The notes under the pieces: generated by a model
The model's database searches: none
What the model was told of the DNA's origin: nothing
Seen by the model: the letters and a program-made list of their open reading frames with translations, nothing else
Source: Erysipelotrichaceae bacterium
GTDB taxonomy: Bacteria > Bacillota_I > Bacilli_A > RFN20 > CAG-826
Direction: 5' to 3'
Assembly: GCA_012518455.1 (NCBI GenBank)
Contig: JAAYSA010000050.1
Coordinates: forward strand, 1 to 61,173
DNA length: 61,173 bases
Shown: positions 1,222 to 58,692 of the stretch, in pieces
How positions within the stretch are numbered: position 1 is the first letter of the stretch
Layout of the letters: each line of letters starts with the position of its first letter
Translations under genes and position numbers: made by a program

Positions 1222-3375
1222 ATGTCAAAACCAATTTTACAAGCACCACTTTCAGTTAATGCAATACGTGCTCTTGTTATCGATGTAACAAACAAAGCTA
1301 ATAGTGGTCACCCTGGAATGGCGATTGGAAGTGCGACGATTCTATACACACTTTTTACAAAATATCTTGTAGCTAATCCTGAAAAACCAGACTGGGTTAA
1401 TCGCGATCGTTTTGTTTTAAGTGCTGGTCATGCAAGTGCTCTACTTTATTCGACACTTCATCTTGCAGGCTATAATATCACAATGGATGACTTAAAAGCA
1501 TTCCGTCAATTAAATTCAATTACTCCTGGGCACCCAGAAGTAACTGATACTCCTGGCGTTGATGCAACAACTGGCCCACTTGGTCAAGGTTTAGCTCAAG
1601 CAGTTGGGATGGCTCTAGCAGAAGAGGCAATTCGAGCTCAACATCCTGAAGTACCGTTTTTTGGGCATTATACATATTGTTTAGTTGGTGATGGTTGTCT
1701 TCAAGAAGGTATCTCACAAGAAGCAATTTCTTTTGCAGGTAATCAAAAACTAAAAAAATTAATAGTTTTTTATGATGCTAACAAAGTTACTCTTGATGGA
1801 CCTCTTGATTTATCTTTTAGTGAAGATGTTAAAAAACGCTTCCAAGCAAGTGGTTGGAATGTTTTAGTCGTTAAAAACGGTAATAATGTAAAAGATTTAA
1901 CGCGTAAAATTGCTAGAGCACGTCGTTCAAAACAAAAACCAACGCTAATTATCGTTTCAACTATTATTGGCCAAGGTTCAAGAAAAGCAGGCACAAGTGC
2001 AGTGCATGGTAGCCCACTTGGTCAAGATGATGGATCATATGCAAAAGGCACATATAATTACCCCTACGCTCCATTTGAAATTCCAAATGAAGTCTATAGC
2101 GAATTTGCTTCGACATTTGGCGAACGTGCTAAAAAAGCAGAAAAAGATTGGGCTGACAAGATTGCTAATCTAGAAAATAGTAATAACCGCGCTTATAAAG
2201 CATTTATGGCCGCATTTACTGATAATAGTCACGAACTTATTTTTGATGAAATTCCTGAATATACGGATGGATTTAATGAATCTACAAGAAAAACAAGTGG
2301 CACAATTTTAAATATGGTTCATAACGAAGTTCCCTTTCTTATGGGAGGATCAGCTGACGTTGCTAGTTCAGTTATGACTAAAATTAGTGGTCTTAGCGGG
2401 ACTGATTTCACTCCAGAAAATCGAGGCGGCCGAAATATTAACTTTGGTATCCGAGAAGCTGCAATGGCTGCAATCCAAAACGGGATGCTACTTCACGGCG
2501 GACTTAGAACATATGTAGGTACATTCCTTGTATTTAGTGATTATATGAAAAATGCAATTCGCGTTGCAGCTCTTTCAAAAGTTCCTGCTATTTACTTATT
2601 TAGTCACGACACTGTCGCACTTGGTGAAGATGGACCAACACATCAACCAATTGAACAACTAGCGATGCTTCGGGCTACACCAAATATAAATGTCTGGCGT
2701 CCAGCAGATGCTAGAGAAACTGCTACAGCCTGGAAACAAGCAATCCTAAGTAAAGAAACACCTACAGCACTAATATTGAGCCGTCAAAATCTACCAACTT
2801 TAGTTGGTTCAAATTATCAAAATGCAAAAAAAGGTGGCTACATTATTAGTAAAGAAGATAAAAAACTAGATTTTACTCTTATTGCGACAGGTAGCGAAGT
2901 TAGTTTAGCCTTAAAAGCTAAAGAAGAACTTCTTAAAGATAAGATTGATGTTCGTGTTGTTTCTCTTCCAAGTATGGAGATTTTCAAAACTCAAGATGAA
3001 GACTATATTAATGAAGTTTTGGGCAAAGATTATAATAAACGTATTGCGATAGAATTACTTTCTCCATTTGGTTGGCATGAATTTGCAAAACATACTTTTA
3101 CAATCAATCGTTTTGGTTTAAGTGCCCCAATGAAAGATGTTTTAGAATCTTTAGAATATACACCTGAAGCTCTTGCTAATAAAGTTAGGGAAATTCTCGG
3201 AATTAAGAAAGAAGTTAAAAAAGAACTTAAGGAAGATCCTAAAAAAGAAGTTAAGGAAGAAACTAAGGAAGAACCTAAGAAAGAAACTGAGGAAGAAACT
3301 AAGGAAGTAGTTAAGGAAGAAACTGAGAAAGAAATTAAAGAAGAAATAGAGAAAGAAGTTGAAGTTAAGGAATAA
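1222..3375 (+). CDS. tkt: Transketolase with about 55-aa K/E-rich C-terminal tail
   Basis: SD aaaggagg upstream; NSGHPGMAIG, GDGCLQEG and HDTVALGEDGPTHQPIE transketolase signatures; tail KKEVKKELKEDPKKEVKEETKEEPKKETEEETKE... Confidence 0.93.
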   Translation: MSKPILQAPLSVNAIRALVIDVTNKANSGHPGMAIGSATILYTLFTKYLVANPEKPDWVNRDRFVLSAGHASALLYSTLHLAGYNITMDDLKAFRQLNSITPGHPEVTDTPGVDATTGPLGQGLAQAVGMALAEEAIRAQHPEVPFFGHYTYCLVGDGCLQEGISQEAISFAGNQKLKKLIVFYDANKVTLDGPLDLSFSEDVKKRFQASGWNVLVVKNGNNVKDLTRKIARARRSKQKPTLIIVSTIIGQGSRKAGTSAVHGSPLGQDDGSYAKGTYNYPYAPFEIPNEVYSEFASTFGERAKKAEKDWADKIANLENSNNRAYKAFMAAFTDNSHELIFDEIPEYTDGFNESTRKTSGTILNMVHNEVPFLMGGSADVASSVMTKISGLSGTDFTPENRGGRNINFGIREAAMAAIQNGMLLHGGLRTYVGTFLVFSDYMKNAIRVAALSKVPAIYLFSHDTVALGEDGPTHQPIEQLAMLRATPNINVWRPADARETATAWKQAILSKETPTALILSRQNLPTLVGSNYQNAKKGGYIISKEDKKLDFTLIATGSEVSLALKAKEELLKDKIDVRVVSLPSMEIFKTQDEDYINEVLGKDYNKRIAIELLSPFGWHEFAKHTFTINRFGLSAPMKDVLESLEYTPEALANKVREILGIKKEVKKELKEDPKKEVKEETKEEPKKETEEETKEVVKEETEKEIKEEIEKEVEVKE

Positions 3376-6275: not shown

Positions 6276-6319
6276 AGTATATTATTAGTAATATATTAGT
6301 AGTTTATAAGTAGTTTATA
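6276..6319 (+). repeat. 11-bp phased AGTA repeat array (4 units), last two units identical
   Basis: AGTATATTATT AGTAATATATT AGTAGTTTATA AGTAGTTTATA; the final A is the A of the dxs ATG. Confidence 0.85.
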
Positions 6320-9437: not shown

Positions 9438-9470
9438 AGTAGAATATTAGTATAAAGTTAGGAGTTTTTT
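9438..9470 (+). repeat. 11-bp phased AGTA units (2 plus an SD-containing third unit) upstream of xerD
   Basis: AGTAGAATATT AGTATAAAGTT AGGAGTTTTTT then ATG at 9473. Confidence 0.55.
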
Positions 9471-13380: not shown

Positions 13381-13968
13381 ATGAACTATTATAATAACGA
13401 TCATAAACGGCGCGATATTAAGCGTCGTTTTGCTAAAATTAGGCAAGAAAGCAATGAAAAACCAAAAGAATTACTATCTAGTGATACCCTTGAAGCAATC
13501 AATGATTGGCTCGCTAACTGTATTCGCTATGAACGTTTTTTACTTAGTAATGAGCTTCAGTATGATTTAAGACAAGGTGATGTCTTTGAAATCGACTATG
13601 GCGGAAGCGTTGGTGCTGAACTAAAAGGACGACACTATGGAGTAATTCTTCATAATTCCAATGAGAAAACACAAACGGCATTAGTTTGTCCATTAGTAAG
13701 TATTCGCGATACGGATATTAAAGATAGTAGTTGGAGAATTAATATTGGTAATCTACAGTGGCGATTTAGTAACTATGAGAGCATTGCTTTAATTAGTCAA
13801 ATAAGAGCTATTGATAAAGTTCGCATTTACGCAAAAGCATTAATAAGTCTAGAAAACATTCCAGAAGACCAACGACCAAATCGTGTTCCAGTAGCAATTT
13901 TAACTGAAAAGCAAATGGAAATAATAATCGAAAGTTATTTTAAATTACTGCGAAACAAACTATATTAA
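13381..13968 (+). CDS. MazF/PemK-family endoribonuclease-like protein with about 65-aa basic N-terminal extension
   Basis: SD aaggagg; GDVFEIDYGGSVGAELKGRHYGVIL and SIALISQIRAIDKVRI align with B. subtilis EndoA [25 protein letters not shown] / SVILLEQIRTIDKQRL. Confidence 0.7.
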   Translation: MNYYNNDHKRRDIKRRFAKIRQESNEKPKELLSSDTLEAINDWLANCIRYERFLLSNELQYDLRQGDVFEIDYGGSVGAELKGRHYGVILHNSNEKTQTALVCPLVSIRDTDIKDSSWRINIGNLQWRFSNYESIALISQIRAIDKVRIYAKALISLENIPEDQRPNRVPVAILTEKQMEIIIESYFKLLRNKLY

Positions 13969-13988
13969 TTAAACGAAGAACAACGAAA

Positions 13989-14043
13989 AGTAGATAATTA
14001 GTAGTTTATAAGTAATTCATAAGTTGTGGAAAACTGTGGATAA
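13989..14043 (+). repeat. 11-bp phased repeat array (5 units) after the MazF-like gene
   Basis: AGTAGATAATT AGTAGTTTATA AGTAATTCATA AGTTGTGGAAA ACTGTGGATAA; 18-nt core ATTAGTAGTTTATAAGTA identical to 6295-6312. Confidence 0.8.
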
Positions 14044-14138
14044 ACCCACTTTTCTGGCATTTGAAAACAGTTACTTAGATTGTTAGTTAATATGATTTTT
14101 AAACAAAAACGAACATAACATCGCAAAATACTACTATT

Positions 14139-14166
14139 CGTTAACATAATATGTATTATTACAACT
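14139..14166 (-). other. Candidate dif (Xer recombination) site
   Basis: Minus-strand reading AGTTGTAATAA-TACATA-TTATGTTAACG; right arm 9/11 to E. coli TTATGTTAAAT and to B. subtilis TTATGTAAACT; lies in the convergent gap. Confidence 0.45.
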
Positions 14167-14294
14167 AACTATATATTCGGAAAATTAGTTATTCTCACCA
14201 AAAAATTCTAATTAGAAAGAAATAACCTCCTTATAATAGAGAATAAAGTAATTTCCTTCTATCGGCATTGATAACTACATTCGTTTTTTTAGAT

Positions 14295-14330
14295 AAAGAA
14301 AAAAACTTCGCCGAGTGCAAAGTTTCTTCA
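14295..14330 (-). terminator. Terminator after nadD/yqeK
   Basis: Minus strand gaagaaacuu-(11 nt loop)-aaguuuuuuuc, T-rich 3' side. Confidence 0.5.
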
Positions 14331-14351
14331 AATTGTTAAACGGAATATTCG

Positions 14352-22969: not shown

Positions 22970-23024
22970 AGTTATCTTTTAGTAGTTTATTAGTTGATAG
23001 CGAGTAGTAAAGTAAGTAATAAAA
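22970..23024 (+). repeat. 11-bp phased AGTA repeat array (5 units) after plsY
   Basis: AGTTATCTTTT AGTAGTTTATT AGTTGATAGCG AGTAGTAAAGT AAGTAATAAAA. Confidence 0.7.
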
Positions 23025-23057: not shown

Positions 23058-23072
23058 AACTAAATATAAGGC

Positions 23073-23294
23073 TTATTGTTTCATTGAGCGCATAACAGCA
23101 CGTACTTGTGCTTCGCTTGGTTTACGCCCAGTAGCAGAAAGCATTGCACGAACTTGTTTTTCTGATATTGGTGGATTCTTTTTTAGTTGAACTTGGAATA
23201 CTTTTCTAGAAATAAAGAAGCCAAGAACTAAACCTAGTACTAAAGCTCCAACACCAATACCAATAATTCCACCTGTAGACATTAAAATAATCAT
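23073..23294 (-). CDS. yneF: UPF0154 family membrane protein YneF
   Basis: 73 aa, one N-terminal TM, then NPPISEKQVRAM...GRKPSEAQVRAVMRSM. Confidence 0.8.
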   Translation of the reverse strand: MIILMSTGGIIGIGVGALVLGLVLGFFISRKVFQVQLKKNPPISEKQVRAMLSATGRKPSEAQVRAVMRSMKQ

Positions 23295-23296
23295 AA

Positions 23297-36648: not shown

Positions 36649-36657
36649 ATAGCCTCC

Positions 36658-36701
36658 TTTTCTTTACTATTAAACAACTTGTAAACTACTAAAAATATAC
36701 T
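36658..36701 (-). repeat. 11-bp phased AGTA repeat array (4 units) spanning glyQS stop to dnaG SD
   Basis: Minus strand: AGTATATTTTT AGTAGTTTACA AGTTGTTTAAT AGTAAAGAAAA then GGAGGctatATG. Confidence 0.75.
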
Positions 36702-41856: not shown

Positions 41857-41911
41857 AATATCACCCTATTAATAAATTGACATCTTTATGTGATTTTGTT
41901 CGTTTTTATAT

Positions 41912-41937
41912 AAAAAAATCACGGCTTGCCGTGATTT
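41912..41937. terminator. Strong bidirectional terminator after rpsU
   Basis: atcacggc-tt-gccgtgat stem flanked by A7 / T4. Confidence 0.8.
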
Positions 41938-41955
41938 TCCTATTTTTTTAATTTT

Positions 41956-42138
41956 TTAGCGTCTTTTACGACGTTTGCGCCGCGCTTGTTCTTCTTTAAG
42001 TTTACGAGCTAGGCCAGGCTTGACGTAATATTTACGTTTTCTTGCTTCTGCTAAGGTTCCAGCTTTGTTAACTTGACGCTTAAAACGTTTGAGGCTATCT
42101 TCTAGCGATTCGTTTTCTCGAACTGTAATTTTTGGCAT
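41956..42138 (-). CDS. rpsU: 30S ribosomal protein S21
   Basis: [21 protein letters not shown]... 60 aa. Confidence 0.95.
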
Positions 42139-42181
42139 CGTTAATCAACTCCTTCCTTCGCAGTTTGCGTTTTCCGTTAGT

Positions 42182-42210
42182 ATTATAGATGCATAAGAGG
42201 GGAAATGCAA
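42182..42210 (-). promoter_or_regulatory. rpsU promoter TTGCAT-17-TATAAT
   Basis: Minus strand TTGCAT (42210-42205), TATAAT (42187-42182). Confidence 0.6.
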
Positions 42211-42244
42211 CACTTTTATGTGCTGATTTCCTCTTTTTGCTACT

Positions 42245-52598: not shown

Positions 52599-52821
52599 CT
52601 TTTTTATTGGCTTCTTCGTGAAATTTAGCCATTTCAATTTGTGTTTCTTCATCCTCAATTGGTTCTAAAACACGTTGTAGTTCTTCATGAACTGCTGTTT
52701 CTTCATCAATAACTCCATCTTTTTCTTTAATTCCTGGTACGAATTTACGAAGAAGAAAAACAAGGAGGGCGATTGCTCCAAAAAAGAGAATAATGAGTAT
52801 TAATATAACAAAAGGATTCAT
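52591..52821 (-). CDS. Small membrane-anchored acidic protein (76 aa)
   Basis: One N-terminal TM (FVILILIILFFGAIALLVFLL) plus acidic tail; stop overlaps hemW start (ATGAATAG). Confidence 0.5.
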   Translation of the reverse strand: MNPFVILILIILFFGAIALLVFLLRKFVPGIKEKDGVIDEETAVHEELQRVLEPIEDEETQIEMAKFHEEANKKDE

Positions 52822-52835
52822 AATATGCTCTCTTT

Positions 52836-54377: not shown

Positions 54378-54410
54378 CAGTTAAAACTATTTAATTACTA
54401 ATTATATACT
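54378..54410 (-). repeat. 11-bp phased AGTA units (3) between lepA and the Fic-like gene
   Basis: Minus strand AGTATATAATT AGTAATTAAAT AGTTTTAACTG. Confidence 0.6.
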
Positions 54411-56246: not shown

Positions 56247-58641
56247 ATTGACCTCCTTTTTTTTCGTTAGTAGCATTATCACATTTTTTATCTCTTGTTT
56301 CAATTGAAACAAAAAACCTATGTGTTAATTCATATGCATGTGAGGGATTATCAACATAGTGTCTTAGCCCGTTATAGCTATGAATTATCGTGCGATATGG
56401 GTTTTCTAAGTACCTTTCATCAACAAGAAGGACAAAGCCTTTATCTGTTTCACTTCTAATAAGACGACCCATTGCTTGAAGGACGCGGTTTATACCAGGA
56501 TTAATATAGGTATATGCAAAGCCTTTCCCATCATATCTTCGGCGATATGCAGCATAAATTCGATCTAAATCTTCATCCATTCTAGGGAAGCCAACTCCAA
56601 TAATAATTACACCAATTAATCGATCATCTGGTAGATCTATTCCTTCAGAAAAAATACCTCCCATTACAGTTAAACCAAGTAGCGACCTAGAAGGATTTTC
56701 AACAAATGAATTTAGAAATTTTACTCGTTCTTCATCGTTCATATCTTTTGTTTGAACGACTAAATCATAATCATCTTTTGTTTCTAAATAACTTTTAATG
56801 TTTTCTAAATAAGCATAACTTGGGCAATAAATAAGATAATTACCAACTTTTGCACTTATAGCCGTTAAAATATAGTCTGCTACTTCTCCATATGTTTCAT
56901 CTCTTTTTTTGTATGTTGTAGCAACATCAGTTGCAATCATTAAAAGTAAATTCTTCCTAGGAAAAGGGTTAGGAAGAGTAATAACAGTATCATTTTCTTC
57001 GATTCCAAGGACATCTTTATAAAAATTTAGCGGACCTAGTGTCGCGCTAAAAAGAAGGGATCCACGAGTTTTTAGTAAACCTTCGCGAATATAGGAGCTT
57101 GGATCTAAACATAGAATACGAAGAGCAGGCAACATACCTTCTTTAAAAACTACATAACTTTCGAGATTTTCGCTACTTATTTCACTTAGTTTTAAATAAC
57201 GAGAGACATCAAAATATAAATCTTTAAGTGTCTTACTTACAAGATCGGTATACTCATAAATAAATGTTTGAGCAGCATTGTTAAAAGAAATAAGGGCTTT
57301 ATTTAATTCAACTAAAACTTCATTAATTGATCCTTCCTCTTCAGGAGTAAGTTCTTTAAGCAATTCAATTTGGGCAATTACTTTATTTATTGTTGTCTTA
57401 AATTTTCTTTTGCTAAAACTACGGAGTTCCTTTTTTACTGTATAGAATGAGTAAAATTCGAGGAGAACACTATAATTATCGCGTACTCTTTCTACTAGAT
57501 TATGCGCTTCATCAATTAAAGAAACATAATTATCATTATAATCATCAAAAAAGCGTCTTAAGTATGCATTTGGATCAAATAAATAGTTATAATCGCCAAT
57601 GATATAATCAACAAAAAGTGAGATATCAAGTTGGAGTTCAAAAGGACAAACACCGTGTTTTAGGGCATATTTTAAGATTGTTTCTTTATCAAATAAATTA
57701 TCGCTATTTATCATTTCAAAAAGAATATCTTTTAATTTTCCGTAATAATTTTTTGTATATGGACATTCTTCTGGGTTACAGGCTACAGTTTCATTAACAC
57801 ATATTTTTTCTTTAGCAGTTATAAATACACCTTTTGTATGTAATCCTGCCCTAATAAGAGAATCTAGTGCATCATATGCGGTTTTTTGCGTACTGCCTTT
57901 AGCAGTAAAATAGAAAACTTTTTCTAGCTTTTCGCGGTAAAATTCTTTAGCAGTAGGATATAGGACTGCCATTGTTTTACCAATCCCAGTAGGAGCTTCA
58001 ATAAGTGTAATCCCACCATTTTTAAGCATCTCTTTTGTTGCTAAAAGCATTTCCTCTTGGCCATTTCTTTTATTTTCAAAAGGAAAAGGAAGATTTTTAG
58101 CGCTTTGATTTCGTAATCTTTTGTGATTATAAACATTGTCATAAAAAGAGAGAAAACTCGATAAAAAGCCAATTACTATTTCTTCTAATTCTTTAGTAAA
58201 AAAGCAGTATTTATGTGTCTTTTTTTCTTCATCGAGTTGATTAATATAAACGAGGTGTATATTGATTATCTCTAAATCTAACTCATGAGCAATCATAAGA
58301 GCATAACACTGCGCTTGACCTAAATGCCAATTACTATTTGAAAGAAAAAATTCATCAAGATCTATATTTGTTGATTTTATTTCTTCAATGATGACTTTAC
58401 CGTTATTGAATATTACACCATCTGCAAAACCGCGAAGAGTAATTTCAAAACTACCAATTTTAAAGGTTTCTTCTACTGCATATTCAGATTTATAATCATC
58501 ATTTTGCTGTTGTTGATAATATGTATGAATATGAGTACCTCTTGTCATTGATGCAAGATTAAAAATGCGGTCATCTATATCACCTGACCGTAAAACAAAA
58601 TCAACTAATTCATGAACACTTAGATTAATCTTCTTTTTCAT
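56236..58641 (-). CDS. PD-(D/E)XK nuclease domain fused to XPD/DinG-family Fe-S DNA helicase
   Basis: N-terminal GFADGV...EEIKST...QAQCY (RecB/Cas4-like D, ExK, QxxxY); APTGIGKT, Cys cluster [15 protein letters not shown]...CPFE, DEAH (LIDEAHNL). Confidence 0.75.
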
Positions 58642-58692
58642 CTTTACTTATTATCTACTAATTAACTACTAATTATTTACTCTTAATAAACT
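58638..58692 (-). repeat. 11-bp phased AGTA repeat array (5 units) filling the whole fmt-helicase spacer
   Basis: Minus strand AGTTTATTAAG AGTAAATAATT AGTAGTTAATT AGTAGATAATA AGTAAAGATGA (contains the helicase ATG). Confidence 0.8.

What the first reader, a model, noticed from the sequence alone, without database searches (positions are those of the whole stretch)
6276..6319. Dispersed family of sense-oriented, 11-bp-phased AGTA repeat arrays in intergenic spacers (type locus xseB-dxs)
At least seven short intergenic spacers are built from tandem 11-nt units that each begin AGTA or AGTT. The rough consensus is AGTAGwTwAtT.

Loci:
- 6276-6319: AGTATATTATT AGTAATATATT AGTAGTTTATA AGTAGTTTATA
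- 9438-9470
- 13989-14043
- 22970-23024
- 36658-36701 (minus)
- 54378-54410 (minus)
- 58638-58692 (minus)

That is about 28 units in total. An 18-nt core, ATTAGTAGTTTATAAGTA, is identical at 6295-6312 and 13997-14014.

Every array is on the sense strand of its flanking genes. Each starts right after a stop codon and often runs into the next start codon or SD. At dxs the last A of a perfect 11-bp tandem duplication is the A of the ATG, and there is no SD.

The 11-bp period matches one DNA helical turn. It is also not a multiple of 3, so the embedded TAG/TAA triplets rotate through all three reading frames.

I do not recognise this as a described element. Possible roles, all inference:
- phased binding sites for a protein on one face of the DNA
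- an RNA-level element, such as an RNA-binding protein or RNase processing site, or an SD-independent translation enhancer
- an all-frame stop cassette that insulates coupled genes
Basis: seen in the sequence. Interest (0 to 1): 0.72.

Follow-up and report, generated by a model that had tools for sequence, protein, structure and literature searches.

The report
Phased AGTA repeats after stop codons
Runs of three to five 11-base units that each begin AGTA/AGTT sit just after the ends of genes, always on the gene's own strand, in a clade of uncultured small-genome Bacilli; they are kept in register across distant relatives, match no described element, and most likely act on the messenger RNA.

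Summary
AGTA-N7-AGTA-N7-AGTA occurs 5 times in the window against 0.01 expected. Within spacers, AGTW pairs 11 nt apart number 19 against 2.0±1.4 in shuffles.

Across 13 loci (271 kb) from this organism and relatives, non-coding DNA holds 94 pairs at 11 nt, 7 at 10 nt and 3 at 12 nt. Coding DNA shows no peak.

In the window and nine relatives, all 28 arrays of three or more units are non-coding. All lie on the sense strand and start from 13 nt before to 27 nt after the upstream gene's stop codon, ahead of any terminator. One case is ambiguous.

Arrays are conserved in place (xseB-dxs, dinB-xerD, pemK-like/dif, plsY, relA) in relatives with Dxs identity down to 52% and GC of 29-51%. AGT columns are invariant while the filler diverges.

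The window contains the replication terminus (a dif-like site). The array after the head-on plsY gene follows the gene, not the replichore.

The RNA is unstructured, C-free, poor in start codons and Shine-Dalgarno-like triplets, and rich in stop triplets. A real Shine-Dalgarno often occupies the next in-phase slot.

Best reading (about 0.4): a multivalent single-stranded-RNA docking platform. The binder and its effect are unknown. A DNA-level winged-helix array is the main rival. I found no known family that fits.

The parts
6276..6319 (+). Four-unit array (AGTATATTATT AGTAATATATT AGTAGTTTATA AGTAGTTTATA). It fills the xseB-dxs spacer, starts 6 nt after the xseB stop, and its last A is the A of the dxs ATG. 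There is no SD.
   Evidence: conserved in register in 7 species (alignment A3) and in L229
9438..9464 (+). Two AGTA units (9438-9459) followed in phase by the xerD Shine-Dalgarno sequence AGGAG (9460-9464), in the dinB-xerD spacer.
   Evidence: the same arrangement is seen in L006 and L008
13989..14032 (+). Four-unit array starting 20 nt after the stop of the PemK/MazF-like gene, in a convergent spacer. The fourth unit (AGTTGTGGAAA) runs into DnaA-box-like or hairpin sequence.
   Evidence: conserved in L006, L008, L120, L121, L206, L243, L244, L245 and L173, with a two-unit remnant in L246
22970..23013 (+). Four in-phase units (AGTTATCTTTT AGTAGTTTATT AGTTGATAGCG AGTAGTAAAGT) starting 3 nt after the plsY stop. 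plsY is a head-on (lagging-strand) gene to the right of dif.
   Evidence: orthologous plsY-sense arrays in L243, L245 and L246
23027..23049 (.). Bidirectional intrinsic terminator hairpin immediately downstream of the plsY array (context: the array lies inside the transcript).
36658..36701 (-). Four-unit array at the glyS-dnaG junction. The first unit lies in the last glyS codons and the TAG stop is part of unit 2. The dnaG SD GGAGG (36653-36657) follows at phase -1.
54378..54410 (-). Three-unit array starting 27 nt after the lepA stop.
58638..58692 (-). Five-unit array starting 1 nt after the fmt stop. The last unit (AGTAAAGATGA) contains the ATG of the DinG-like helicase gene. There is no SD.
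14139..14166 (.). dif-like Xer site (context: it marks the replication terminus and is needed to separate gene orientation from replichore orientation).
   Evidence: conserved in relatives

Best explanation
**What it is.** The arrays are a conserved, clade-specific cis-element that acts in the transcript, or at least co-transcriptionally on the sense strand. Each array has three to five AGU(A/U) cores exactly 11 nt apart. About half the units carry a second AGU at +3, giving the consensus AGUAGUUAAUU. The cores sit in A/U-rich, C-free, unstructured RNA that begins from 13 nt before to 27 nt after the stop codon of the upstream ORF.

**How it most likely works.** It is a multivalent docking platform for an oligomeric or multi-domain single-stranded-RNA-binding protein. 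Each protomer or domain would read a core of about 4 nt (KH, S1 or OB-type footprint), with neighbours in fixed register. The protein would coat the first ~35-55 nt of ribosome-free RNA after an ORF.

**Likely consequences.**
- At operon junctions and 3' ends, the bound block would set mRNA processing and segment stability by acting as a barrier or entry point for RNases.
- Where the next cistron's SD or AUG falls into the next slot of the lattice, it would also set that cistron's translation.

**Why the flanks of each G are fixed.** A before G means no ATG, GTG or TTG. T after G means no GG or GAG. This keeps the platform invisible to initiating ribosomes.

**Shown:** reality, phasing, conservation, strand, position, lack of structure, translation-inert design.
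**Inferred:** that RNA rather than DNA is read, that a protein binds, and what binding does.
For: **Phasing is real and strict**
- 5 hits against 0.01 expected; 19 against 2.0±1.35 within spacers.
- Non-coding AGTW pairs across 13 loci: 94 at 11 nt, 7 at 10 nt, 3 at 12 nt. Coding DNA shows no peak (34 pairs at 11 nt in 248 kb).

**Purifying selection on the register**
- Arrays are kept in place in relatives with Dxs identity 93% to 52% and GC 29-51%.
- In the xseB-3' alignment of 7 species, the AGT columns of units 1-3 are invariant, the filler varies, and there are no indels.
- A/T-rich arrays persist as islands after plsY in a 51% GC genome (L246) and at xseB-dxs in a 49% GC genome (L229).

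**Strand and position**
- All 28 arrays of three or more units in the window plus nine relatives (232 kb) are non-coding.
- All are sense to the adjacent upstream gene, starting from 13 nt before to 27 nt after its stop (with the lepA distance corrected). One case is ambiguous.
- I count about 11 non-orthologous sites by hand. All are sense, which gives 2^-11 under a fair coin (my own arithmetic).
- In long convergent or terminator-containing spacers (pemK-like, plsY and relA, mostly 200-480 nt) the array still hugs its own gene's stop and precedes the terminator hairpin.

**Not replichore-driven**
- plsY is head-on to the right of dif. Its array follows the gene and is conserved in L243, L245 and L246.

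**RNA properties**
- No significant fold for the array-only spacers (z between -1.2 and +0.5; the two segments that also contain a downstream hairpin reach -1.4 and -1.9).
- C content is 1.3%. Start triplets number 6 against 28.7, SD-like triplets 3 against 13.2, and stop triplets 73 against 54.6 in shuffles.
- The predicted anti-SD duplex is -0.8 against -4.9 kcal/mol for shuffles.

**Link to translation**
- A real SD (AGGAG or AGGA) occupies the next in-phase slot at dinB-xerD in three species and at L244:5829, and sits at phase -1 at glyS-dnaG. By eye it also does so at L244 glyS-dnaG and L120.
- dxs lacks an SD in 5 of 6 species, with the array abutting the ATG.
Against: - There are no expression or binding data. 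Transcription through the arrays is inferred only from their position upstream of terminators and inside operons.
- Single-stranded RNA is flexible, so a spacing as strict as 94:7:3 is more typical of double-helix recognition.
- The A/T degeneracy at core position 4 and the TpA-rich filler are what a DNA minor-groove reader would tolerate. The reverse complements of TAGTA and TAGTT are the pentamers preferred by B. subtilis Rok.
- No candidate binder was identified.
- All sampled DNA lies within about 60 kb of dif, so genome-wide behaviour is untested.
- Only one head-on gene (plsY and its orthologues) separates gene orientation from replichore orientation.
- The SD-in-phase result rests on 3-4 independent sites.
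Confidence: 0.4

Rival explanations
1. **DNA-level element.** The arrays are head-to-tail binding sites on one face of the double helix for a winged-helix protein. This could be an OmpR/PhoB-type response regulator (short core plus spacer at an 11-bp period, typically four units) or a Rok-like minor-groove nucleoid protein. It would act as a polar barrier or architectural mark at gene ends.
For: - The spacing is strictly 11 bp, with almost no 10 or 12.
- Three to five units, with a mode of four, is the same layout as double Pho boxes (my own knowledge of B. subtilis PhoP and E. coli PhoB).
- Core position 4 is A or T, and the filler is W-only and rich in TpA steps.
- The reverse complements of TAGTA and TAGTT are TACTA and AACTA. 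These are the top Rok pentamers, and Rok also favours TpA steps (PMC6212790).
- The A/T island is kept in a 51% GC genome.
Against: - 28 of 28 arrays are sense to the upstream gene and start within 27 nt of its stop. None lies in a divergent promoter spacer apart from one doubtful case.
- Arrays sit upstream of intrinsic terminators, so they are not themselves terminators.
- The xseB-dxs spacer is entirely array, so a roadblock there would silence dxs.
- The invariant AGT does not match the PhoP (TTAACA) or WalR (TGTWAH) cores.
- Rok is reported only in some Bacillus species, and its sites are not phased or oriented.
Confidence: 0.22
2. **Passive translation insulator.** The arrays are spacers selected only to be inert. 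They would have no structure, no start codons, no SD-like runs, and stops in every frame, so that read-through or frameshifted ribosomes are stopped before the terminator or the next ribosome-binding site. The 11-nt period would be a by-product of growth by tandem duplication.
For: - Stop triplets are enriched (73 against 54.6) and all three frames are closed in 9 of 10 arrays, against 5.9 in shuffles.
- Start triplets (6 against 28.7) and SD-like triplets (3 against 13.2) are depleted.
- Anti-SD pairing is weaker than in 99.8% of shuffles.
- The RNA is unstructured.
- There is a perfect 11-bp duplication at dxs.
Against: - The model does not explain why G is kept at exactly the same columns across relatives at 52-93% Dxs identity while the filler is saturated.
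- It does not explain why spacings of 10 or 12 nt are nearly absent.
- It does not explain the strand choice: the antisense reading AAUUAACUACU would be equally inert.
- A pure A/U spacer would serve as well.
Confidence: 0.12
3. **Translation re-initiation or SD-independent initiation track.** The array keeps post-termination ribosomes on an unstructured, start-free track. It delivers them to the next start codon, or otherwise substitutes for an SD.
For: - Arrays start right after stops and run into the next SD or ATG.
- dxs has no SD in 5 of 6 species.
- The DinG-like gene (58641) and two L206 genes also have no SD, with the array abutting the ATG.
- The SD sits in phase in several spacers.
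Against: - Conserved arrays after plsY, relA, the pemK-like gene and L193 xseB are followed by a terminator and no gene.
- Predicted pairing with the anti-SD is essentially nil and lower than chance.
- The distance from the last unit to the ATG is not constant: 3-10 nt in the four non-orthologous cases that lack an SD.
Confidence: 0.1
4. **Endoribonuclease cleavage cassette.** The arrays offer several G-punctuated sites in single-stranded A/U-rich RNA, of the RNase Y type (cut after G in an A/U context) or RNase E/G type. Cleavage would separate cistrons or remove the terminator hairpin to trigger decay.
For: - The RNA is single-stranded and A/U-rich, with isolated G residues.
- Arrays are located at operon junctions and between the stop codon and the terminator.
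- The RNase Y preference for G at position -1 is from my own knowledge (S. aureus and S. pyogenes studies), not tested here.
Against: - A nuclease site does not need an exact 11-nt register or three to five copies.
- The nuclease repertoire of this clade is unknown.
Confidence: 0.08
5. **Replichore-polar chromosome element.** The arrays would be KOPS/SRS-like or Ter-like, pointing towards dif, and only appear gene-sense because most genes are co-oriented with replication.
For: - The window contains a dif-like site at 14139-14166 and a GC-skew switch.
- Plus-strand arrays lie to the left of dif and minus-strand arrays to the right.
- All sampled arrays lie within about 60 kb of dif.
Against: - The plsY array lies to the right of dif on the plus strand and follows the head-on gene. 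It is conserved in three relatives.
- Arrays are exclusively intergenic and hug stop codons, unlike KOPS, SRS or Chi.
- They occur as arrays rather than single octamers.
Confidence: 0.03

Closest known systems
TRAP and HutP binding sites in Bacillus leader RNAs (regularly spaced (G/U)AG triplets wrapped around a ring oligomer)
   Same: - Several very short purine-containing cores (here UAG/AGU) at fixed spacing on unstructured sense RNA.
- Function is carried by multivalency and register rather than by RNA structure.
   Different: - Period is 5-6 nt for TRAP (11 triplets) and 7 nt for HutP, against 11 nt here with 3-5 units.
- Those sites lie in 5' leaders that control attenuators of one operon. 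These are dispersed after stop codons of many unrelated genes.
- TRAP and HutP details are from my own knowledge.
Pho boxes and other OmpR/PhoB-family direct-repeat operators (PhoB 7+4 bp; B. subtilis PhoP TTAACA x4; WalR TGTWAH-N5-TGTWAH)
   Same: - Direct repeats at an 11-bp period.
- Short conserved core plus A/T-rich spacer.
- Typically four units.
   Different: - The core AGTW matches none of these consensus sequences.
- Arrays are absent from promoter (divergent) spacers, lie inside operons and ahead of terminators, and are 100% gene-sense.
Rok high-affinity DNA motifs (AACTA, TACTA and TpA steps; PMC6212790)
   Same: - The reverse complement of the array core with its preceding T (TAGTT or TAGTA).
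- The TpA-rich, A-tract-poor filler matches Rok's preference.
   Different: - Rok sites are not phased or strand-oriented.
- Rok is reported in some Bacillus species only.
- No Rok homologue was looked for in this clade.
Rho utilisation (rut) sites
   Same: - Unstructured, ribosome-free RNA just after an ORF.
- Recognition by a ring whose subunits sample the RNA roughly every 11-13 nt.
   Different: - rut sites are C-rich and G-poor. These arrays are 1.3% C and 16% G.
- They are often followed by intrinsic terminators.
REP/BIME elements of enterobacteria
   Same: - Genomic niche: dispersed, extragenic but transcribed, just after stop codons, inside operons or at operon ends, and not in promoters.
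   Different: - REPs are GC-rich palindromic hairpins found in both orientations and mobilised by RAYT transposases.
- These arrays are unstructured direct repeats in one orientation only.
Chloroplast PPR/HAT-protein footprints at intercistronic regions (e.g. PPR10 at atpI-atpH)
   Same: - Works like the proposed mechanism: a protein bound to unstructured intercistronic RNA defines processed mRNA ends by blocking exonucleases, and can set translation of the next cistron.
   Different: - Each PPR site is a unique sequence of about 17-20 nt read by one helical-repeat protein. It is not a phased repeat shared by many loci.
- This is an analogy only, from my own knowledge.

Membership tests
Any Rfam RNA family | Match to a curated covariance model at the gathering score | tested here: not met
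   cmscan of the whole window, both strands, gave 0 matches.
Structured cis-regulatory RNA (riboswitch or leader) | A fold more stable than composition-matched shuffles | tested here: not met
   z-scores range from -1.9 to +0.5. Centroids are unpaired for the array-only segments, and the only stable helices are the downstream terminators.
OmpR/PhoB-family operator (Pho box or WalR box) | Direct repeats at a 10-11 bp period | tested here: met
   The period is exactly 11, with 3-5 units.
OmpR/PhoB-family operator (Pho box or WalR box) | Core matching a known consensus (TTAACA, CTGTCAT or TGTWAH) and placement at or upstream of a promoter, in either orientation | tested here: not met
   The invariant core is AGTW. 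Arrays are absent from divergent spacers, follow stop codons and precede terminators, and all are gene-sense. The consensus sequences are from my own knowledge.
TRAP/HutP-type triplet-repeat RNA site | (G/U)AG triplets separated by 2-3 nt (TRAP) or 4 nt (HutP) in a 5' leader | tested here: not met
   The spacing is 11 nt, with an internal +3 doublet. The location is after the stop codon.
Rho rut site | C-rich, G-poor unstructured RNA | tested here: not met
   C is 1.3% and G is 16.4% in 445 nt of arrays.
REP/BIME | Imperfect palindrome forming a hairpin, found in both orientations | tested here: not met
   No hairpin forms within the arrays. All are in one orientation.
KOPS/SRS/Chi-type replichore-polar motif | Orientation follows the replication direction, with no preference for intergenic DNA | tested here: not met
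   Arrays are exclusively non-coding. The plsY array is opposite to its replichore and is conserved. Only this one head-on site was available.
Rok-type nucleoid-protein site | AACTA/TACTA pentamers and TpA steps in A/T-rich DNA | tested here: met
   The logo gives T/A-AGT-A/T, which is the reverse complement of TACTA/AACTA, and the filler is TpA-rich.
Rok-type nucleoid-protein site | Presence of a Rok homologue in the genome | not tested
   No complete genome of the clade was available, and Rok is reported only in some Bacillus species.
Shine-Dalgarno or standby ribosome-binding site | Complementarity to the 16S 3' tail | tested here: not met
   The best duplex is -0.5 to -2.5 kcal/mol, against -12 for a real SD, and is weaker than 99.8% of shuffles. 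A canonical Firmicute anti-SD was assumed.

The most novel reading that the evidence does not exclude
A previously unrecognised class of bacterial post-stop-codon RNA elements. Dispersed arrays of AGU(A/U) cores in a strict 11-nt register would be read by a dedicated oligomeric RNA-binding protein. That protein would mark the end of many ORFs in a whole order-level clade of small-genome Bacilli, and would govern operon segment stability and downstream-cistron translation. It would be a bacterial counterpart of the 3'-UTR or intercistronic protein codes known from eukaryotes and chloroplasts.
Probability: 0.33. Interest if true: 0.85.

Novelty: categorically new. Interest (0 to 1): 0.7.

Why it matters
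If the arrays are what they appear to be, this clade of uncultured Bacilli marks the ends of many unrelated housekeeping ORFs with a shared, strictly phased signal. Selection has kept that signal in register through extensive sequence divergence and a change in GC content from 29% to 51%. The marked genes include relA, xseB, dinB, plsY, glyS, lepA and fmt.

No comparable dispersed, strand-specific, post-stop repeat family is described for bacteria. REPs are hairpins, TRAP and HutP sites are single-operon leaders, and Pho boxes are promoter elements.

That layer could be an RNA-binding protein, or a DNA-binding protein with an unexplained polarity. The strict register offers a clean handle for experiments: G-to-A changes, spacing of ±1 nt, or inversion of the array.

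The finding also bears on annotation. SD-less starts such as dxs, and the 40-50-nt 'empty' spacers, are not noise.

Tried and rejected
**Searches that led nowhere**
- Rfam at gathering score: no match. tRNA/tmRNA scan: none.
- Sigma-70 promoter scan: hits at the chance level (80 against 83.5), and arrays are not preferentially promoter-like.
- Viral contig scan with a 4-unit degenerate pattern: 107 hits, many on giant-virus (GVMAG) contigs, uninformative.
- The single genome-contig scan with Dxs returned only two relatives, both 'Bacilli bacterium' MAGs, so no finer taxonomy was obtained.
- The single metagenome-contig scan with AGTAGTTWATWAGTAGTT was largely off-target. About 40 of the 80 listed hits were a multicopy family from one sample (Ga0256913), and there were odd arrays in high-GC contigs. 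Only L173, L193, L206, L229 and a few others belong to the clade.
- The look-up of the holA product failed because of a start-codon mismatch.
- Extending 10 kb beyond the right end of the window found no further array.
- Four literature searches for an 11-nt/bp repeat of this kind, or for the AGTAGTT motif, found nothing relevant.

**Ideas considered and dropped**
- Degenerate DnaA-box arrays at an 11-bp spacing. The two TGTGG boxes next to array 13989 are 10 bp apart, and AGT lies outside the box core.
- RNA polymerase elemental pause signal (G-10, Y-1, G+1). Position -1 here is always A.
- NusG TTNTTT pause motif. It is present in only some units.
- Primase CTA/TTA initiation sites. They would be on the wrong strand.
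- Type III toxin-antitoxin repeats, CRISPR arrays and contingency loci. The unit size is wrong, and the arrays are identical in five strains.
- Weak SD 'stepping stones'. Pairing to the anti-SD is weaker than chance.
Full report
**Context.** The window is 61 kb, about 33% GC and about 94% coding. It carries housekeeping genes: xseA-xseB-dxs-dinB-xerD, nadD/yqeK, parE-parC, plsY, efp, glyS-dnaG, lepA, fmt and holA. The exact Dxs protein is found only on metagenome or MAG contigs. Its relatives are labelled 'Bacilli bacterium', with contigs of 0.9-1.3 Mb. The source is therefore an uncultured, small-genome member of the Bacilli. One ParE relative is labelled Erysipelotrichales.

- All seven loci read as described.
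- Tandem Repeats Finder independently reports period-11 arrays at three of them.
- AGTAN7AGTAN7AGTA occurs 5 times against 0.01 expected.
- Within the 3.9 kb of spacers, shuffled spacer by spacer with dinucleotides preserved, AGTW pairs 11 nt apart number 19 against 2.0±1.35, with a maximum of 7 in 2000 shuffles.
- In co-directional spacers there are 13 such pairs on the sense strand and none on the antisense strand.
- Pooling the window with 12 further loci (271 kb), non-coding DNA (23 kb) has 94 pairs at 11 nt, 7 at 10 nt and 3 at 12 nt, with 59 at 22 nt. Side peaks at 8, 14 and 19 nt come from the AGTAGT doublet.
- Coding DNA (248 kb) has 34 pairs at 11 nt, which is background.
- Minor corrections: 9438-9470 is two units plus the real SD, two of the 'fifth units' are not AGT units, and the total is about 26 units.

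**Anatomy.** A logo from 107 units gives A-G-T-(A 81%/T 19%)-(G 50%)-T-T-W-A-T-T, that is AGTAGTTAATT. Arrays have 3-5 units, most often 4. They are 1.3% C and 16% G. Folded as RNA, the array-only spacers show no structure beyond chance (z between -1.2 and +0.5). The only stable helices in the longer segments are downstream hairpins such as terminators.

**Conservation.** I fetched the dxs and parE neighbourhoods of relatives through protein homologues.
- Relatives fetched through Dxs were L006 (93% identity), L008 (64%), L122 (62%), L120 (57%) and L121 (52%, GC 43%).
- Relatives fetched through ParE were L243 (85% identity), L244 (76%), L246 (70%, GC 51%) and L245 (69%, GC 30%).
- Three further clade loci came from the pattern scan: L193, L206 (GC 29%) and L229 (GC 49%).
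- Synteny is conserved, and the arrays are in the same places: after xseB, after dinB, after the PemK/MazF-like gene next to dif, after plsY, and (outside the window) after relA.
- In the seven-species alignment of the xseB-3' array, the AGT columns of units 1-3 are invariant, the filler differs freely, and there are no indels.
- L246 (51% GC) keeps an A/T-rich AGTA array after plsY, and L229 (49% GC) keeps one between xseB and dxs.
- This is purifying selection on the cores and on the register, not recent duplication.
- Five strains of the source species are identical at the xseB-dxs and dinB-xerD arrays, so the arrays are not contingency repeats.

**Strand and position.**
- In the window plus nine relatives (232 kb, over 90% coding), all 28 chains of three or more in-phase units are non-coding.
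- All are on the sense strand of the adjacent upstream gene, starting from 13 nt before to 27 nt after its stop codon (with the lepA distance corrected).
- The one ambiguous case is L206:4020. It lies in a 330-nt parC-yqeG spacer with a doubtful 77-codon antisense ORF.
- These arrays represent about 11 non-orthologous sites by my hand count.
- In long spacers the array still hugs its own gene's stop and lies upstream of the terminator hairpin. This holds for pemK-like/nadD (237-481 nt), plsY (90-330 nt) and relA/hisS (about 350-410 nt in the four relatives with arrays of three or more units).
- In L193 the xseB array is followed by a terminator rather than by dxs. The array therefore belongs to the 3' end of the upstream gene, not to the 5' end of the downstream one.

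**Gene orientation or replichore orientation?**
- The convergent spacer 13969-14351 contains a dif-like site at 14139-14166. It matches the B. subtilis dif sequence at 20 of 28 positions, with the XerD arm and central region best conserved. I recalled the B. subtilis sequence and confirmed it as published by the search.
- The GC skew changes sign there, so the window spans the replication terminus.
- Plus-strand arrays to the left of dif and minus-strand arrays to the right would fit either a gene-sense rule or a dif-pointing rule.
- The discriminating case is plsY, a plus-strand (head-on) gene to the right of dif. Its array is on the plus strand, and the orthologous array follows plsY in L243, L245 and L246.
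- Together with the exclusively intergenic, stop-hugging distribution, this argues against a KOPS-, Chi- or Ter-like element. It rests on a single head-on site, however.

**Translation-related design.**
- Against shuffles of the same ten arrays, start triplets number 6 against 28.7±3.7 and SD-like triplets (GGA, GAG, AGG) 3 against 13.2±3.5.
- Stop triplets number 73 against 54.6±4.1, and 9 of 10 arrays close all three frames against 5.9 in shuffles.
- Predicted pairing with a canonical anti-SD is -0.8 and -2.5 kcal/mol, against -4.9 and -7.2 for shuffles. That is weaker than 99.8% of shuffles. A real SD gives -12.
- The A-G-T context is exactly what makes a G invisible to initiation: no xTG start, no GG and no GAG. 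It also creates TAG when preceded by T.
- The cores are therefore not weak SD 'stepping stones'.
- Conversely, where a real SD follows an array, it tends to occupy the next in-phase slot with AGGAG in place of AGTAG. This is seen at dinB-xerD in three species and at L244:5829, and at phase -1 at glyS-dnaG. By eye it also holds at L244 glyS-dnaG and L120.
- dxs has no SD in five of six species, with the array abutting the ATG. The DinG-like gene in the window and two L206 genes also have no SD, with the array abutting the ATG.

**Interpretation.**
- Several properties point to the sense transcript as the level at which the element is seen. They are the strand rule, the tie to the upstream stop codon, the position inside transcripts ahead of terminators, and the translation-inert design.
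- A 3-4-nt invariant core repeated in strict register suggests several identical small binding pockets. That implies an oligomeric or multi-domain single-stranded-RNA-binding protein. The binder is unknown.
- Because many arrays have no downstream gene, the common function is more likely mRNA processing or stability at ORF ends. Control of the next cistron would be a secondary use where its SD or AUG falls in the lattice.
- I put this reading at about 0.4.

**Main rival (about 0.22): a DNA-level array for a winged-helix protein.**
- The 94:7:3 strictness, the four-unit layout, and the A/T degeneracy at position 4 all fit this.
- TAGTA and TAGTT are the reverse complements of Rok's preferred TACTA and AACTA, and the filler is rich in TpA steps (PMC6212790).
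- However, this model does not explain the strand and stop-codon rules or the absence from promoter spacers.

**Other rivals.**
- A purely passive insulator (about 0.12) explains the inert design but not the conserved register or the strand.
- A re-initiation or SD-substitute track (about 0.10) fails for arrays that are followed by terminators.
- An RNase cassette (about 0.08) does not need a register.
- A replichore-polar element (about 0.03) is contradicted by plsY.

**Comparison with known systems.**
- The element fails the tested defining features of Rfam families, structured leaders, TRAP/HutP sites, rut sites, REP/BIME, KOPS/Chi and SD or standby sites.
- It meets only the period criterion of Pho or WalR boxes, and only the pentamer criterion of Rok sites.
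- I therefore file it under no known family. In architecture it works most like multivalent phased protein-binding arrays. In genomic niche it is most like REPs or chloroplast intercistronic protein footprints.

**Limits.**
- There are no expression or binding data.
- All sampled DNA lies within about 60 kb of dif.
- No complete genome of the clade could be scanned with the tools left.
- Only one head-on gene was available.
- The SD-phase result has few independent sites.
- The taxonomic breadth is known only as 'Bacilli bacterium' MAGs spanning GC 29-51%.

Noticed in passing
window 14139-14166 (with the GC-skew sign change near 14 kb): A dif-like Xer recombination site lies in the pemK-like/nadD convergent spacer. 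It reads cGTTAACATAATATGTATTATTACAACt, and its reverse complement matches B. subtilis dif at 20 of 28 positions. It is conserved in all relatives, and xerD lies 4 kb away. The window therefore spans the replication terminus.
   Followed up: partly
window 14025-14043: Two DnaA-box look-alikes, TGTGGAAAA and TGTGGATAA, lie 10 bp apart directly after array 13989. They are conserved in most relatives (L006, L008, L120, L244, L173, L246). In some relatives the same bases form a terminator-like hairpin (L243, L173). It is unclear whether this is a DnaA-box cluster near the terminus or just a hairpin.
   Followed up: partly
window 13381-13968: A 195-aa PemK/MazF-family protein, with a 63-aa N-terminal extension and no obvious antitoxin gene, is syntenic next to dif in nearly all relatives. 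That is unusual for a toxin gene. It is lost in L246, where a two-unit array remnant remains.
   Followed up: partly
window 6319 (dxs start) and orthologues in L006, L008, L120, L121, L122: dxs starts without a Shine-Dalgarno sequence in 5 of 6 species. It encodes a Lys/Arg-rich N-terminal extension (MCKKRKN... in the window) ahead of the conserved Dxs N-terminus.
   Followed up: partly
L208:100-143, L219:2331-2385, L232:4057-4100: Near-perfect (AGTAGTTAATT)4-5 arrays occur in metagenome contigs of 66-71% GC. Each is flanked by a direct duplication of the neighbouring sequence (roughly 14-24 nt by eye). These organisms are unrelated, possibly eukaryotic. The arrays look like insertions or minisatellites rich in stops in all frames.
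   Followed up: no
L124, L131, L134-L136 and about 35 further contigs of sample Ga0256913: A multicopy family carries AGTAGTTTATTAGTAGTT inside a conserved context that looks coding (...ctgtttgaAGTAGTttattAGTAGTtcccatgtgccagctttgg...). It is unrelated to the bacterial arrays and swamped the metagenome pattern scan.
   Followed up: no
window 3201-3364: A Lys/Glu-rich tandem repeat of 12, 24 or 36 nt forms the C-terminal tail of the transketolase gene (1222-3375, 717 aa). The tail is absent from the 662-aa orthologue in L008.
   Followed up: no
window 41857-42244, 52659-52835, 23060-23296: Three long 'spacers' contain small genes that were missed by the 80-aa ORF cut-off. They are an rpsU (S21)-like ORF, a 76-aa ORF (called in L247), and a UPF0154-family ORF downstream of efp (called in L243-L246).
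   Followed up: partly
L006:1600-1818, L008:1700-1966, L122, L193 (upstream of hisS, outside the window): Conserved leader sequence (ggtggtaccgcg...) sits between the relA-3' array/terminator and hisS. It looks like a T-box leader preceded by a good sigma-A promoter.
   Followed up: no
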